Below are positions 6,322 through 40,900 of a stretch of 64,000 nt of DNA, in pieces (position 1 is the first letter of the stretch; each line of letters opens with the position of its first letter). A program made the position numbers and the translations under genes. A model generated the notes under the pieces. That model ran no database searches. It was not told where the DNA came from and saw only the letters and a program-made list of their open reading frames with translations. The DNA is from the human T2T-CHM13v2.0 reference genome, Homo sapiens, in assembly GCF_009914755.1 (NCBI RefSeq), contig NC_060935.1; one strand, 5' to 3'.

Positions 6322-9300
6322 GAGGGGGAGGTTCCAAGAAGGACAAATAGGAATAGCTCCAGTCTACAGCTCCTAGCATGAGCGATGCAGAAGATGGGTG
6401 ATTTCTGCATTTCCAACTGAGGTACCGGGTGCATCTCACTGGGGCTTGTCGGACAGTAAGTGCAGGGCAGTGGGTGCAGCCCACGGACCATGAGCCAAAG
6501 CAGGGCGAGGCATCATCTCACCCGGGAAGCACAAGGGTTTGGGGAATTCCCCTTCCTAGCCAAGGGAAGCCATGACAGATGACACCTGGAAGATCAGGTC
6601 ACTCCCACCCTAATACTGCACTTTTCCAATGGTCATAGCAAACGACACACCAGGAGATTATATCCTGCACCTGGCTCGGAGGGTCCCACACCCACGGAGC
6701 TTGGCTCGCTGCTAGCACAGCAGTCTGAGATCAAACTGCAAGGTGGCAGCGAGGCTGGGGGAGAGGCGCCCACCACTGCTGAGGCTTGAGTAGGTAAACA
6801 AAGTGGCCAGGAAGCTCAAACTGAGTAGAGCCCACCACAGTTCATGGAGGCCTGCCTGCCTCTGTAGACTCCACCTCTGGGGGCAGGGCATAGATGAACA
6901 AAAGGCATCAGAAACCTCTGCAGAATTAAATGTCCCTGTCCGACAGCTTTGAAGAGAGTAGTCGTTCTCCCAGCACGGAGTTTGAGAATGGACAGACTGC
7001 ATCAAGTGGGTCCCTGACTCCCGAGTAGCCTAACTGGGAGGCACTTCCCAGTAGGCGCTAACTGACACCTCATACAGCCGTGTGCCCCTCTGAGACGAAG
7101 CTTCCAGAGGAACAATCAGGCAGCAACATTTGCTATTCTGCAATATTTGCAGTTCTGCAGCCTCTGCTGGTGATACCCAGGCAAACAGGGTCTGGAGTGG
7201 ACCTCCAGCAAACTCCAACAGACCTGCAGCTGAGGGTCCTGACTGTTAGAAGGAAAACTAACAAACAGGACATCCACACGAAAATCCCATCTGTACATCA
7301 CCATCATCAAAGACCAAAGGTAGATAAAACCACAAAGATGGGGAGAAACCAGAGCAGAAAAGTTGAAAATTCTAAAAATAAGAGCACCTCTTCTCCTCCA
7401 AAGGAAAGCAGCTCCTCGCCAGCAAAGGAACAAAGCTGGACGGAGAATGACTTTGACAAGTTGAGAGAAGAAGGCTTCAGAAGATCAGTAATAACAAACT
7501 TCTCCGAGCTAAAGGAGCATGTTCGAACCCATCGCAAAGAAGCTAAAAACCTTGAAAAAAGATTGGACGAATGGCTAACTACAATAGACAGCACAGAGAA
7601 GACCTTAAATGACCTGATGGAGCAGAAAACCATGGCACAAGAACTATGTGAAAAATGTGCAAGCTTCAGTAGCTGATTCGATCAACTGGAAGAAAGGGTA
7701 TCAGTGATTGAAGATCAAATGAATGAAATGAAGTGAGAAGAGAAGTTTACAGAAAAAAGAGTAAAACGAAATGAGCAAAACCTCCAAGAAATATGGGACT
7801 ACGTGAAAAGACCAAATTTACGTCTGATTGGTGTACCTGAAAGTGATGGGGAGAATGGAACCAAGTTGGAAAACACACTTCAGGATATTATCCAGGAGAA
7901 CTTCCCCAACCTACCAAGGCAGGCCAACATTAAAATTCAGGAAATACAGAGAACACCACAAAGATACTCCTCAAGAAGAGCAACTCCAAGACACATAATT
8001 GTCAGATTCACCAAAGTTGAAATGAAGGAAAAAATGTTAAGGGCAGCCAGAAAGAAACGTCGGGTTACCCACAAAGGGAAGCCCATCAGACTAACAGCGG
8101 ATCTCTTGGCAAAAACTCTACAAGCCAGAAGAGAGTGGGGGCCAATCTTCAACATTCTTAAAAAAAAGAATATTCAACCCAGAATTTCATATCCAGCCAA
8201 ACTAAACTTCATAAGTGAAGGAGAAATAAAATCCTTTACAGACAAGCAAATGCTGAGAGATTTTGTCACCACCAGGCCTGCCTTACAAGAGCTCCTGAAG
8301 GAAGCACTAAACATGGAAAGGAACAACTAGTACCAGCCACTGCAAAAACATGCCAAATTGTAAAGACCCTCGATGCTAGGAAGAAACTGCATCAACTAAG
8401 AAGCAAAATAACCAGCTAACATCATAATGATAGGATCGAATTCACACACAATGACATTAACCTTAAATGTAAATGGGCTAAATGCTCCAATTAAAAGACA
8501 CAGACTGGCAAATTGGATAAAGAGTCAAGAACCATCAGCTTGCTGTATTCAGGAGACCCATCTCACGTGCAGAGACACATATAGGCTCAAAATAAAGGGA
8601 TGGAGGAAGATCTACCAAGCAAATGGAAAACAAAAAAAAGTAGGTGTTGCAATCCTAGTCTCTGATAAAACAGACTTTAAACCAACAAAGATCAGAAGAG
8701 ACAAAGAAGGCCATTATATAATGGCAAAGGGATCAATTCAACAAGAAGAGCTAACTATCCTAAATATATATGCACCTAATTCAGGAGCACCCAGTTTCAT
8801 AAAGCAAGTCCTTAGAGACCTACAAAGAGACTTAGACTCCCACACAATAATAATGGGAGATTTTAACACCCCACTGTCAACATTAGACAGATCAACAAAA
8901 CAGAAAGTTAAAAAGGGTATCCAGGAATTGAACTCAGCTCTGCACCAAGTGGACCTAAGAGACATCTACAGAACTCTCCACCCCAAATCGACATAATATA
9001 CATTCTTCTCAGCACCACATCACACTTATTCCAAAATTGACCACATAGTTGGAAGTTAAGCACTCCTCAGCAAATGTAAGAGAACAGAAATTATAACAAA
9101 CTGTCTCTCAGACTACAGTGCAATCAAACTAGAACTCAGGATTAAGAATCTCACTCAAAACTGCTCAACTACATGGAAACTGAACAACCTGCTCCTGAAT
9201 GACTACCGGGTCCATAACGAAATGAAGGCAGAAATAAAGATGTTCTTTGAAACCAATGAGAACAAAGACACAACATACCAGAATCTCTGGGACACATTTA

Positions 9301-37954: not shown

Positions 37955-40900
37955 GAGGAGAAAGATGGCCAAATATGAACAGCTCCAGTCTACAGCTCCC
38001 AGCATGAGCGACGCAGAAAACGGGTGATTTCTGCATTTCTAACTGAGGTACTGGGTTCATCTCACTGGGGCATGTCAGACAGTGGGTGCAGCACACCGAG
38101 TGAGAGTGGAAGCAGGGTGAGGCATCGCCTTACCCAGGAAGTGCAAGGGGTCAGGGAATTCCCTTTCCTAGCCAAGGGAAGCCATGACACACAGCACCTG
38201 GAAAATCGAGTCACTCCCACCCTAATACTGCACTTTTCCAAGGGTCCTAGCAAACGGCACACCAGGAAATTATATCCTGCGCCTGGCTCGGAGGGTCCCA
38301 CACCCATGGAGCCTCGCTCATTTCTAGCACAGCAGTCTGAGACCTAACTGCAAGGCGGCAGTGAGCCTGAGGAAGGGCGCCCACCATTGCTGAGGCTTCA
38401 GTAGGTAAACAAAGCAGCCAGGAAACCCAAACTGGGTGGAGCCCACCGTCGCTCAAGGAGGCCTGCCTGCCTCTGTAGACTCCACCTCTGTGGGCAAGGC
38501 ATAGCCGAACAAAAGGCAGCAGCAACCTCTGCAGATTTCACTGTTCCTGTCTGACAGCTTTGAAGAGAGTAGTGGTTCTCCTAGCACAGAGTTTGAGATC
38601 TGAGAACGGACAGACTGCCTCCTCAAGTGAGTCCCTGACCCCTGAGTAGCCTAACTGGGAGGCCCCCCAGTAGGGGCAGACTGATACCTCACATGGCCGG
38701 GTACCCCTCTGAGACAAACCTTCCAGAGGAACGATCAGGCAGCAACATTTGCTGTTCAGCAATATTCGCTGTTCTGCAGCCTCCGCTGCTGATACCCAGG
38801 CAAACAGGGTCTGGTGTACCTGAAAGGGTCTTGAGTGGACCTCCAGCAAACTCCAACAGACCTGCAGCTGAGGGTCCTGACTGTTAGAAGGAAAACTAAC
38901 AAACAGAAAGGACATCCACACCAAAACCCCATCTGTATGTCACCATCATCAAAGACCAAAGGTAGATAAAATCAAAAAGATGGGAAAAAAACAGAGAAGA
39001 AAAGCTGAAAATTCTAAAAATCAGAGCACCTCTCCCCCTCCAACGGAACGCAGCTCCTCGCCAGCAAAGGAACAAAGCTGAATGGAGAATGACTTTGACG
39101 ATTTGAGAGAAGAAGGCTTCAGATGATCAAACTTCTCCAAGCTAAAGGAGGAAGTTCAAACCCATCACAAAGAAGCTAAAAACCTTGAAAAAGATTAGAC
39201 AAATGGCTAACTAGAATAACCAGTGTAGAGAAGTCCTTAAATGACCTGATGGAGCTGAAAACCATGGCACGAGAACTACATGACGAATGCACAAGCTTCA
39301 GCAACGGATTTGAGCAACTGAAACAAAGGGTATCAGTGATTGAAGATCAAATGAATGAAACAAAGCGAGAAGAGAAGTTTATAGAAAAAACAGTAAAAAG
39401 AAATGAACAAAGCCTCCAAGAAATATGGGACGATGTGAAAAGACCAAATCTATGTCTGATTGGTGTACCTGAAAGTGACAGGGAGAATGGAACCAAGCTG
39501 GAAAACACACTTCAGGATATTATCCAGGAGAACTTCCCCAACCTACCAAGGCAGGCCAACATTCAAATTCAGGAAATACAGAGAACACCACAAAGATACT
39601 CCTCGAGAAGAGCAACTCCAAGACACATAATTGTCAGATTCACCAAAGTTGAAATGAAGGAAAAAATGTTAAGGGCAGCCAGAGTAAAACGTCGGGTTAC
39701 CCACAAAGGGAAGCCCATCAGACTAACAGCAGATCTCTCAGCAGAAACTCCACAAGCCATAAGAGACTGTGGGCCAATATTCAACATTCTTAAAGAAAAG
39801 AATTTTCAACCCAGAATTTCATATCCAGCCAAACTATGCTTCATAAATGAAGGAGAAATAAAATACTTTACAGACAAGGAAATGCTGAGAGATTTTGTCA
39901 CCACCAGGCCTGCCCTACAAAAGCTCCTGAACGAAGCACTAAACATGGAAAGGAACAACCAGTACCAGCCACTGCAAAAACATGCCAAAATGTAAAGACC
40001 ATCGATGCTAGGAAGAAACTGCGTAAACTAACAAGCAAAATAACCAGCTAACATCATAATGACAGGATCAAATTCACACATAACAATATTAACCTTAAAT
40101 GTAAATGGGCTAAATGCTCCAATTAAAAGACACAGACTGGCAAGTTGGATAAAGGGTCAAGACCCATCAGTGTGCAGTATTCAGGAGACCCATCTCATGT
40201 GCAGAGACACACATAGGCTCAAAATAAAGGGATGGAGGAAGATCTACCAAGCAAATGGAAAACAAAAAAAAGCAGGGGTTGCAATCCTAGTCTCTGATAA
40301 AACAGACTTTAAACCAACAAAGATCAGAAGAGACAAAGAAGGCCATTATATAATGGCAAAGGGATCAATTCAACAAGAAGAGCTAACTATCCTAAATATA
40401 TATGCACCCAATACAGGATCACCCAGATTCATAAAGCAAGTCCTTAGAGTCCTACAAAGAGACTTAGACTCCCACACAATAATAATGGGAGACTTTAACA
40501 CCCCCACTGTCAACATTAGACAGCTCAATGAGACAGAAAGTTAAAAAGGATATCCAGGAATTGAACTCAGCTCTGCACCAAGTGGACCTAAGAGACATCT
40601 ACAGAACTCTCCACCCCAAATCGACATAATATACATTCTTCTCAGCACCACATCACACTTATTCCAAAATTGACCACATAGTTGGAAGTTAAGCACTCCT
40701 CAGCAAATGTAAAAGAACAAATTATAACAAACTGTCTCTCAAACCACAGTGCAATCAAACTAGAACTCAGGATTAACAAACTCACTCAAAACTGCTCGAC
40801 CACGTGGAAACTGAACAACCTGCTCCTGAATGACTACTGGGTCTATAACAAAATGAAGGCAGAAATAAAGATGTTCTTTGAAAACAATGAGAACAAAGAC

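What the first reader, a model, noticed from the sequence alone, without database searches (positions are those of the whole stretch)
8918..40711. L1 copies A and C, 31 kb apart, share the same inactivating stop codons
Seen: about 160 bp of ORF2 (8918-9079 vs ~40551-40711) read identical by eye, including two in-frame TAA stops 63 nt apart (8994/9057 vs 40627/40690). The copies also share non-consensus residues: ORF1 NLPRQ; ORF2 YIMAKG, NQRRAR, ATGTK, WEKES, LTLYT, KANID, WWDGK, QPRCP, AAIRK. Their 5' portions differ at what I recall as subfamily-diagnostic sites (A has the 9-bp gtaataaca in ORF1 near 7488; C lacks it). Established: L1 proteins act mainly in cis, so a source element with EN stops is unlikely to have produced both. 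Inference: post-insertion ectopic gene conversion, in patches, between direct-repeat L1s.
Basis: partly seen in the sequence, partly recalled or inferred. Interest (0 to 1): 0.8.

Follow-up and report, generated by a model that had tools for sequence, protein, structure and literature searches.

The report
Gene-conversion patches between neighbouring dead L1s
Three old, independently inserted L1 retrotransposons in an intron of human CCDC73 have copied short stretches of sequence onto one another, which is why two of them carry the same two stop codons; this is a clear but ordinary case of a known process.

Summary
L1 copies A (6325-12474, +) and C (~37960-43818, +) are identical over 8918-9079 = 40551-40712, including both in-frame TAA codons. 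All ten shared peptide motifs and the 9-bp ORF1 difference are real.

Over most of their length A and C are no closer than unrelated copies: 12% apart in the 5' 1.5 kb and 5.9% in ORF2, the same as each against 20 other full-length L1s. Four patches break this pattern:
- T1 8646-8776: 0 of 131 differ.
- T2 8918-9079: 0 of 162.
- T3 11214-11871: 7 of 658.
- T4 12064-12440: 3 of 377.

These patches hold 20 of the 28 alleles that A and C share but almost no other copy has. Exhaustive whole-genome pattern scans find the stop haplotype and a 161-nt T3 haplotype only in A and C.

The inverted copy B (17180-23612) matches A exactly over 243 bp, where B's own dense decay mutations are missing.

Direction is resolved only for A to B. 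Primate orthologues and reads could not be checked. This is a known phenomenon, so interest is modest.

The parts
6325..12474 (+). L1 copy A. Full-length at the 5' end. The 3' terminal ~250 bp and tail are lost; the element ends in a (TA/CA)n run followed by an Alu fragment.
   Evidence: Self-BLAST, sequence at the ends, alignment to 20 full-length copies.
17180..23612 (-). L1 copy B. Inverted relative to A and C, and older and more decayed: 16-18% from A and C in the 5' part, 7-13% in ORF2.
37960..43818 (+). L1 copy C, with an A-rich tail. Candidate 17-nt target-site duplication at 37943-37959 and 43819-43835, matching at 15 of 17 positions in purine-rich sequence.
7488..7496 (+). 9-bp ORF1 segment present in A, B and 3 of 20 panel copies; absent in C and 17 of 20. 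Marks A and C as different haplogroups.
   Evidence: One search adds 8 further ORF1 sites with the same split.
8646..8776 (+). Patch T1 in A (= C 40278-40408). 0 of 131 positions differ; 3 shared rare alleles (8695, 8717, 8725).
40278..40408 (+). Patch T1 in C.
8918..9079 (+). Patch T2 in A (= C 40551-40712). 0 of 162 differ. Shared rare alleles at 8959, 8990, 8994 and 9057, including the two TAA stops at 8994 and 9057.
40551..40712 (+). Patch T2 in C, with TAA at 40627 and 40690.
11214..11871 (+). Patch T3 in A (= C 42313-42970). 7 of 658 differ; 9 alleles seen in at most 1 of 20 panel copies, plus 2 seen in 2 of 20. Four of the seven differences cluster at 11562-11602, so this may be two tracts.
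42313..42970 (+). Patch T3 in C.
12064..12440 (+). Patch T4 in A (= C 43163-43539). 3 of 377 differ; shared rare alleles at 12102, 12189, 12298 and 12370.
43163..43539 (+). Patch T4 in C.
17459..17701 (-). Patch in B identical to A 12198-12440 (243 of 243). B has none of its own decay mutations here.
9956..10189 (-). Young retroposed insertion inside A only. Poly-T at its left end, 13-bp duplication CCTAACTCATTTT on both sides. Not part of the conversion; it shows that A went on changing on its own.

Best explanation
A, B and C are three separately inserted, long-dead L1PA-type elements within 37 kb of a CCDC73 intron. After insertion, short stretches (about 130-660 bp) were copied from one element onto another by non-allelic (ectopic) gene conversion. 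This is homologous repair or recombination that uses a nearby paralogous L1 as template.

Each event moved the donor's private decay mutations into the recipient and erased the recipient's own. That is how the two TAA codons, ordinary decay mutations in one dead copy, came to be in both A and C.

At least four A-C patches exist (T1-T4), plus one later A-to-B patch. All lie in the 3' two-thirds, where the copies were about 94% alike. None lies in the 5' 1.5 kb, where they are only about 88% alike.

Shown: the mosaic, the genome-wide uniqueness of the patch haplotypes, the youth of the patches relative to the background, and B as recipient.

Inferred: the mechanism itself, the order of events (A-C T4, then the 12229 A>G change in A, then A to B), and the dating.

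Dating: patch divergence is about one sixth of background, which gives roughly 4-10 million years for assumed rates of 1.1e-9 to 0.5e-9 per site per year.
For: **1. Mosaic.**
- Outside the patches, d(A,C) is 12.3% in 6332-7866 and 5.4-7.8% in five ORF2 segments. Pooled over ORF2 it is 139 of 2362, or 5.9%.
- This equals the mean d(A,panel) and d(C,panel) in the same segments.
- Inside T1-T4, d(A,C) is 0, 0, 1.1 and 0.8%, against 4.3-6.6% for A or C versus the panel. No panel copy is closer than 2.3-3.7%.
- Binomial P is 3e-3, 2e-5, 5e-8 and 9e-6.

**2. Shared rare alleles.**
- 28 sites in the L1 body have A=C with the allele in at most 1 of 20 panel copies.
- 20 of the 28 lie in the four patches (1328 bp). 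None lies in the 5' 1508 aligned bp.
- 14 of them were also checked in 28 further copies: each was seen in 0 or 1.

**3. Genome-wide uniqueness.**
- The 85-nt stop haplotype, allowing 2 mismatches, gives 2 matches: A and C.
- The 161-nt 11401-11561 haplotype, allowing 3 mismatches, gives 2 matches: A and C.
- The 8 best other genomic matches to T3 carry 0-3 of its 11 alleles.

**4. Clustering test.** The maximal-segment score of shared versus private sites is 26 for A-C, the highest of 231 pairs. The next is 19 (a same-haplogroup pair in ORF1) and the median is 3. Permutation p is 1e-4.

**5. Independent insertions.**
- The flanks do not align.
- C has its own candidate target-site duplication.
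- A and C differ at the 9-bp indel and 8 ORF1 haplogroup sites.

**6. Third partner, B.**
- B 17459-17701 is identical to A 12198-12440 at 243 of 243 positions.
- B has no private mutation there against a local density of 7.7% (P 3.5e-9).
- B agrees with A at all 3 sites where A and C differ.
- The combination 12229G+12298G+12370G is absent from the 8 best other genomic matches.

**7. Prior knowledge from papers (passages only).**
- Fawcett and Innan 2019 (PMC6598467), citing Aleshin and Zhi 2010, describe non-allelic gene conversion between nearby Alus, with rate depending on distance and identity.
- Sen et al. 2007 (PMC1920257), citing Tremblay et al. 2000, report L1-L1 and intrachromosomal L1 gene conversion.
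Against: - No outgroup species could be examined, so no tract is shown to be absent from an orthologue. The A-C direction is also unresolved.
- The simplest test, the longest run of matching polymorphic sites, is unremarkable. A-C scores 74, against 81 for A-B and 75 for L033-L047. Permutation p is 0.002 over the whole element but 0.03 for the 3' part alone.
- The clustering test restricted to the 3' part gives p = 0.008, not 1e-4.
- GC bias, which is expected for meiotic conversion, is only a trend. Weak-to-strong versus strong-to-weak is 13:8 among patch-shared alleles and 48:73 among private ones (Fisher p = 0.09).
- Eight shared rare alleles lie outside clear patches (7877, 7914, 8058, 9212, 9428, 9901, 10345, 10747). 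9212 and 9428 are flanked within a few bases by private differences. I expect only about 2-4 such sites from parallel mutation (my estimate).
- Some single alleles are not private. 7877A is in 11 of the 12 one-mismatch matches genome-wide. 12229G, 12298G and 12370G each occur singly in some other copies.
- The reference panel is 20 (+28) copies chosen by similarity, not a curated subfamily consensus.
- A has lost its 3' end, so it has no target-site duplication to show.
Confidence: 0.88

Rival explanations
1. A and C descend from one dead source element or small sub-lineage that already carried the stops and the other shared alleles. It was mobilised in trans by proteins from other L1s.
For: Trans-mobilisation of defective L1 RNA is known to occur at low rate (my knowledge, not from a call). 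Eight shared rare alleles lie outside the clear patches. A few alleles occur sporadically elsewhere.
Against: - The similarity is not uniform. Between patches A and C are as far apart as unrelated copies.
- Patch divergence (10 of 1328, 0.75%) is far below what each copy has accumulated since insertion (background 5.9%).
- No third copy carries the haplotypes in whole-genome pattern scans.
- The 5' parts belong to different haplogroups.
Confidence: 0.03
2. C (or A) was born as a chimera. Reverse transcription switched templates between RNA from the other copy and RNA from an active L1, giving a mosaic at the moment of insertion.
For: Chimeric L1 insertions and template switching are described for L1 (my knowledge, not from a call). 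The 5' part differs in haplogroup while parts of the 3' portion are shared.
Against: - It would need eight or more switches to make four separate patches.
- The patches should then be as old as the insertion, yet they are about six-fold less diverged than the background.
- It cannot explain the exact 243-bp A=B patch in an inverted, older element whose own mutations are erased there.
Confidence: 0.03
3. The patches are an artefact: assembly collapse or mis-polishing between similar repeats, or remnants of a DNA-level segmental duplication.
For: Not testable here at read level. The three L1s are similar enough to confuse short reads.
Against: - The patches are interleaved with many copy-specific differences, and T3 and T4 themselves hold 10 such differences. 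This is not expected of a collapse.
- The flanks of A and C share no similarity, so there is no segmental duplication.
- That the source is a long-read telomere-to-telomere assembly of an effectively haploid genome comes from the hub's note and my knowledge, not from a test.
Confidence: 0.03
4. The conversion was mediated by L1 cDNA: reverse-transcribed RNA of one copy recombined with the other chromosomal copy, rather than DNA-to-DNA repair.
For: Reported for yeast Ty and fission-yeast Tf2 elements, per passages of Fawcett and Innan 2019 (PMC6598467). It would give the same patch pattern.
Against: Nothing here distinguishes it from DNA-templated conversion. Proximity of the three partners (5-31 kb) is what chromosomal-template conversion predicts, whereas a cDNA could reach any L1 in the genome. 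The recipient B is inverted, which neither mechanism forbids.
Confidence: 0.03

Closest known systems
Non-allelic gene conversion between neighbouring Alu elements (Aleshin and Zhi 2010, seen only as cited in passages of Fawcett and Innan 2019, PMC6598467)
   Same: Dispersed retrotransposon copies inserted independently. Nearby copies are partly homogenised after insertion. The rate is said to depend on distance and identity. Derived mutations are transferred between copies.
   Different: Here the partners are 6-kb L1s, not 300-bp Alus. They lie 5-31 kb apart, whereas the elevated Alu rate is quoted for under 10 kb. Several separate patches can be resolved within one pair, and a third, inverted partner allows a partial order of events.
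L1-templated gene conversion in double-strand-break repair (Tremblay, Jasin and Chartrand 2000, seen only as cited in Sen et al. 2007, PMC1920257) and the intrachromosomal gene conversion proposed for locus NCLI34 in Sen et al. 2007 (passage)
   Same: One L1 copy serves as a repair template for another. Tracts are short (Sen et al. quote tracts down to 13 bp). The donor is on the same chromosome in the NCLI34 case.
   Different: Those are cell-culture events, or a single inserted segment. Here there are germline-fixed replacement patches between old resident elements, with no inserted or deleted sequence at the patch edges.
Concerted evolution of duplicated genes and segmental duplications (Teshima and Innan 2004; Mansai et al. 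2011; seen only as cited in PMC6598467)
   Same: Patchy homogenisation, reduced divergence inside tracts, and dependence on identity.
   Different: A, B and C are not duplicates of one locus. They are independent insertions with unrelated flanks. Homogenisation covers only about 1.3 kb of 6 kb.
Trans-mobilised defective L1 lineages (recalled, no call)
   Same: They would also make two copies share inactivating mutations.
   Different: That predicts uniform similarity dating from insertion, and usually further copies. Here similarity is patchy and young, and the haplotypes are confined to this locus.

Membership tests
Non-allelic (ectopic) gene conversion between dispersed repeats | The partners are paralogous copies at different loci with separate origins. 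| tested here: met
   The flanks of A and C do not align. C has its own candidate target-site duplication, 15 of 17. A and C differ at a 9-bp indel and 8 ORF1 haplogroup sites. A's 3' end is lost, so A has no duplication to show.
Non-allelic (ectopic) gene conversion between dispersed repeats | Mosaic similarity: bounded tracts of near identity inside background divergence typical of unrelated copies. | tested here: met
   Tract d(A,C) is 0-1.1%, against 5.4-7.8% in the intervening ORF2 segments. The latter equals d(A,panel) and d(C,panel). P is 3e-3 to 5e-8.
Non-allelic (ectopic) gene conversion between dispersed repeats | Tracts carry derived alleles that are otherwise private to one locus. 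| tested here: met
   20 of 28 shared rare alleles lie in the tracts. The tract haplotypes are found only in A and C genome-wide. The best other matches carry 0-3 of 11 alleles.
Non-allelic (ectopic) gene conversion between dispersed repeats | The recipient's own earlier mutations are erased in the tract. | tested here: met
   Met for B: 0 private sites in 243 bp against a 7.7% local density. For A versus C, the recipient cannot be told from the donor.
Non-allelic (ectopic) gene conversion between dispersed repeats | Orthologous copies in outgroup species lack the tract (tree incongruence). | not testable with these tools
   No other primate genome is held (one search states the genome has no relatives here).
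Non-allelic (ectopic) gene conversion between dispersed repeats | GC-biased transmission (weak-to-strong excess) if the conversion is meiotic. | tested here: inconclusive
   13:8 in the tracts against 48:73 among private changes. Odds ratio 2.5, Fisher p = 0.09.
Segmental duplication | Similarity continues into the flanking unique sequence. | tested here: not met
   The self-BLAST of the window gives no flank-to-flank match beyond the L1 bodies and unrelated Alus.
Copies of one trans-mobilised dead source | Uniform similarity along the shared length, dating from insertion. Shared alleles are expected in the source or other progeny. | tested here: not met
   The similarity is patchy. Patches are about six-fold younger than the background. 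No third carrier was found in whole-genome pattern scans.
   No consensus library is available. It is shown only that A groups with B and 3-5 of 20 panel copies in ORF1, while C groups with the majority, and that both are about 9-10% from their best genomic matches in the 5' half.

The most novel reading that the evidence does not exclude
The three L1s mark a small, long-lived hotspot of repeated non-allelic exchange, with at least five events among direct and inverted partners.

The youngest events are T1, T2 and the A-to-B patch, each with zero differences. They may be specific to the human lineage or even still polymorphic.

If so, the locus would be a natural reporter for rate, tract length, direction and orientation-dependence of conversion between old retrotransposons. 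It would also be a candidate site for L1-L1 deletion or inversion inside CCDC73.
Probability: 0.25. Interest if true: 0.45.

Novelty: new member of a known kind. Interest (0 to 1): 0.3.

Why it matters
- **Effect on L1 analysis.** Decay mutations, stop codons included, can be passed between dead L1 copies tens of kilobases apart. Shared lesions or shared "diagnostic" alleles in neighbouring elements therefore cannot be read as common descent, and divergence-based ages of such copies are biased.
- **What this locus offers.** Four A-C patches plus a dated A-to-B patch in an inverted partner give tract lengths (about 130-660 bp) and an identity threshold: no patch where the copies are about 88% alike, all patches where they are about 94% alike. 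They also give a partial order of events.
- **Limits.** No new mechanism is involved, and no effect on the host gene is indicated.

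Tried and rejected
- **Longest-run test.** The longest run of matching polymorphic sites, in the GENECONV style without mismatches, does not single out A-C. I replaced it with tests based on shared-rare versus private sites and on local distances.
- **Older-subfamily alleles as a direction marker.** I first read the alleles shared with B (11501, 11684, 12298, 12370) as older-subfamily alleles showing A as donor to C. 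I dropped this for 12298 and 12370 once B proved to be a recent recipient in that stretch. The A-C direction stays open.
- **Subfamily-diagnostic sites in the 3' half.** Too few to paint donor and recipient.
- **GC bias.** Only a trend.
- **PRDM9-type 13-mer (motif recalled).** 2 matches in the window, both in Alus outside the L1s. 14 of 100 shuffles give as many.
- **Isolated pair 7877+7914.** The combination is exact only in A and C, but 280 matches lie within 2 mismatches and 7877A is common elsewhere, so it is weak evidence.
- **Other mutation-free stretches in B.**
  - B 8684-8803 lacks two of the three T1 alleles, so it is not counted as a tract.
  - B 9130-9269 shares 9212C with A and C and differs from A at 2 sites. 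This may be an older exchange, but it is not claimed.
- **Second reference panel.** Only short pieces were fetched instead.
- **Papers.** Aleshin and Zhi 2010, Myers et al. 2002 and Tremblay et al. 2000 are not held and are known to me only through citing passages. Literature searches turned up no paper on this locus, but none searched for it by name.

Full report
**What is in the window**

A self-comparison of the window shows three near full-length L1 elements.
- A lies at about 6325-12474 on the + strand.
- B lies at 17180-23612 on the - strand.
- C lies at about 37960-43818 on the + strand.
- An older 5'-truncated L1 (13419-17149, -) abuts B.

The hub's table places all of this inside an intron of CCDC73.

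A against C is 90.0% identical over 6336-9438 / 37962-41069, and 95.7% over 10190-12474 / 41266-43573. A against B is 84% in the 5' 3.6 kb and 91-92% further on.

The flanks of A and C do not match each other. C has an A-rich tail and a candidate 17-nt target-site duplication (37943-37959 and 43819-43835, 15 of 17 identical, purine-rich). A begins with a complete 5' end. It has lost its last ~250 bp, ending at 12474 in a (TA/CA)n run and an Alu fragment.

**The observation**

Searches confirm that 8918-9079 and 40551-40712 are identical (162 bp). TAA sits at 8994 and 9057 (40627 and 40690), 63 nt apart. Both are in the ORF2 frame. In A they are the only stops in that frame between about 8418 and 9440, whereas C's frame is also broken by indels on both sides of the patch.

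Three of them (KANID, QPRCP, AAIRK) are also in B.

The 9-bp GTAATAACA at 7488 is in A, B and 3 of 20 panel copies. It is missing in C and 17 of 20. At 8 further ORF1 sites A sides with B and a minority haplogroup (L040, L041, L044, L051), while C has the majority allele.

**Is it more than chance?**

An identical run of 162 bp is not special in itself. Among the 253 pairs of 23 aligned L1s, 52 have an identical run of 130 bp or more. In a run test on polymorphic sites, A-C (74 sites) ranks behind A-B (81) and L033-L047 (75), with permutation p of 0.002 for the whole element and 0.03 for the 3' part.

The signal lies in which alleles are shared. I searched the whole genome, which the tools hold as G000, 3.1 Gb. 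Within the 162 bp, the 28 best other copies all lack the combination of four alleles that A and C share. An exhaustive pattern scan for the 85-nt stretch containing both stops, allowing 2 mismatches, finds exactly two places, A and C.

**Reference panel and mosaic**

I fetched 20 full-length L1s that were the best genomic matches to the 5' halves of A or C and aligned them with A, C and B. L049 turned out to be a different element beyond about 11000 and was excluded there.

Of 5672 aligned positions, classified against the panel's per-column majority:
- A and C both have the majority allele at 5180.
- A alone differs at 231.
- C alone differs at 174.
- Both differ in the same way at 72.
- Both differ in different ways at 15.

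Of the 72 shared sites, many are CpG transitions or alleles common in the panel. 28 sites within the L1 body have an allele seen in at most 1 of 20 panel copies. None of these 28 lies in the 5' 1.5 kb (6332-7866). 20 lie in four stretches where A and C are nearly identical:

| Patch | A coordinates | A-C differences | Shared rare alleles |
|---|---|---|---|
| T1 | 8646-8776 | 0 of 131 | 3 |
| T2 | 8918-9079 | 0 of 162 | 4 |
| T3 | 11214-11871 | 7 of 658 | 9 |
| T4 | 12064-12440 | 3 of 377 | 4 |

Fourteen of the rare alleles fall in the region covered by 28 further copies (L003-L030). Each is seen in 0 or 1 of the 23-28 copies that cover it.

Local distances make the mosaic explicit.
- Between the patches, d(A,C) is 12.3% in the 5' part and 5.4-7.8% in five ORF2 segments. 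Pooled over ORF2 it is 139 of 2362, or 5.9%.
- These values equal the mean distances of A and of C to the panel in the same segments. There A and C are simply two unrelated members of similar subfamilies. This agrees with the whole-genome searches, in which C is not even among the 40 scored matches to A's 5' half.
- Inside the patches d(A,C) is 0, 0, 1.1 and 0.8%. A or C against the panel is 4.3-6.6%, and the closest panel copy is 2.3-3.7%.
- Binomial probabilities given the local expectation are 3e-3, 2e-5, 5e-8 and 9e-6.

A clustering test scores shared-rare sites +3 and private sites -1. It gives A-C a maximal segment score of 26, the highest of 231 pairs. The runner-up is 19, a pair of the same haplogroup in ORF1, and the median is 3. 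Permutation p is 1e-4 for the whole element and 0.008 for the 3' part alone.

**Uniqueness of the patch haplotypes**

For T3, C is the best genomic match to A (99%) and the next are 97%. The 8 best of those carry 0-3 of the 11 T3 alleles. An exhaustive scan for the 161-nt stretch 11401-11561, which holds five of the alleles, finds only A and C with up to 3 mismatches.

Not every single allele is private.
- The 58-nt stretch with 7877A and 7914C is exact only in A and C.
- It has 280 matches within 2 mismatches.
- 11 of the 12 one-mismatch matches carry 7877A without 7914C.

**A third partner**

B is otherwise 7-13% from A, C and the panel in ORF2. Yet it is identical to A over 12198-12440 (B 17459-17701, 243 of 243). 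B's own private changes run at about 7.7% in the preceding kilobase, but none falls in this stretch. The probability of that is 3.5e-9, so B's sequence was overwritten here.

The stretch carries only three non-panel alleles, far fewer than a B-derived donor would give, so B is the recipient. At the three sites where A and C differ inside it (12219, 12229, 12252), B agrees with A. The combination 12229G+12298G+12370G is absent from the 8 best other genomic matches, which carry at most one or two of them.

The simplest order of events is:
1. An A-C exchange covering T4.
2. The 12229 A>G change in A.
3. A to B.

B also has a mutation-free stretch at 9130-9269. It shares 9212C with A and C, an allele seen in 0 of 48 other copies, and differs from A at two sites. 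This may be an older exchange, but I do not claim it.

**Mechanism**

The pattern is that of non-allelic gene conversion:
- independently inserted paralogues;
- bounded tracts of near identity;
- the donor's private mutations carried over;
- the recipient's private mutations erased.

The two TAA codons are then ordinary decay mutations of one dead copy that were pasted into the other.

The patches are far younger than the insertions. Pooled patch divergence is 10 of 1328 (0.75%) against 5.9% background. With an assumed neutral rate of 1.1e-9 to 0.5e-9 per site per year, this puts T3 and T4 at roughly 4-10 million years and the insertions at roughly 27-59 million years. T1, T2 and the A-to-B patch are compatible with any age below about 5-12 million years. 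These dates are inference and depend on the assumed rate.

All patches lie where A and C were about 94% alike, and none where they are about 88% alike. This fits the known dependence of conversion on identity (passages of PMC6598467).

A weak-to-strong excess among patch alleles, 13:8 against 48:73 among private changes, points the way GC-biased conversion would. It is not significant (p = 0.09). No PRDM9-type motif lies in the L1s (motif recalled).

**Rivals**

- **A common dead source mobilised in trans, or a chimeric insertion made by template switching.** Either would give sharing that dates from insertion, and in the first case uniform similarity. The patchiness, the six-fold younger patches, the absence of any third carrier, and the A-to-B patch in an inverted older element all argue against both.
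- **Segmental duplication.** Excluded by the unrelated flanks.
- **Assembly mosaic.** Cannot be tested here. It is unlikely given the many copy-specific differences interleaved with, and inside, the patches.
- **cDNA-mediated conversion.** Known for yeast elements (passage of PMC6598467). It would look the same and is not excluded, though the closeness of the three partners favours chromosomal templates.

**What remains unexplained**

Eight shared rare alleles lie outside the four patches: 7877, 7914, 8058, 9212, 9428, 9901, 10345 and 10747.
- By my rough estimate, parallel mutation would give about 2-4.
- Three of them sit in identical runs of 65-76 bp (7867-7931, 9861-9928, 10305-10380) and may be short tracts.
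- 9212 and 9428 are hemmed in by private differences. They may be relics of older exchanges, since 9212C is also in B.

The direction of the A-C transfers could not be determined. Too few haplogroup-diagnostic sites exist in the 3' half, and no outgroup genome is available.

**Comparison with what is known**

- Non-allelic gene conversion among dispersed repeats is established. It has been analysed genome-wide for neighbouring Alus (Aleshin and Zhi 2010, known to me only as cited in PMC6598467).
- It has been shown for L1 as a repair template in mouse cells (Tremblay et al. 2000, as cited in PMC1920257).
- It has been invoked for an intrachromosomal L1 patch in the human genome (Sen et al. 2007, passage).
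- A 2026 preprint lists gene conversion among the processes that blur old L1 histories (PMC13192797, passage).

The present case is a new, well-resolved example rather than a new kind of thing. My five literature searches did not look for this locus by name, so I make no claim that it is undescribed.

**Verdict**

The phenomenon is known. Interest is about 0.3.

Noticed in passing
window 9956-10189: A carries a 234-bp insertion absent from B, C and all 20 panel copies. It has a poly-T run at its left end and a 13-bp duplication CCTAACTCATTTT on both sides. It is 98-99% identical to at least 39 other places in the genome (995 first-look candidates). This looks like a young, 5'-truncated, antisense retroposed element; from memory it resembles the 3' (SINE-R) end of SVA, which was not tested.
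   Followed up: partly
window 12475-12625: A's last ~250 bp and poly-A tail are replaced by a (TA/CA)n microsatellite (12476-12540) and an antisense Alu-like fragment. A therefore has no recognisable target-site duplication.
   Followed up: no
window 41069-41095: C lacks about 320 bp of L1 sequence that is present in A (about 9439-9760) and B. The junction has a repeated TGAATCTCTGAA, suggesting a deletion between short direct repeats.
   Followed up: no
window 21245-21285 and 18827-19090: B has a private ~41-bp A-rich insertion and a private ~265-bp insertion relative to A, C and the panel.
   Followed up: no
window 31071-31819: AT-rich minisatellite of about 750 bp. Unit 26 bp (28.9 copies), with higher-order periods of 52 and 78 bp; 86-89% matches.
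   Followed up: partly
window 13419-17149: An older 5'-truncated L1 (about 70% identical to A, B and C), on the - strand, directly abutting the 3' end of B. It is not involved in the patches examined.
   Followed up: no
window 9130-9269 (B 20775-20636): B has no private mutation for about 140 bp. It shares 9212C with A and C (0 of 48 other copies) and differs from A at 2 sites and from C at 7. This may be a relic of an older three-way exchange.
   Followed up: partly
locus L049 (G000 C23:150272770-150279970), beyond about position 5030: This panel L1 is continued by a different, about 71%-identical L1 segment. It is a composite element and was excluded from the 3' analyses.
   Followed up: no
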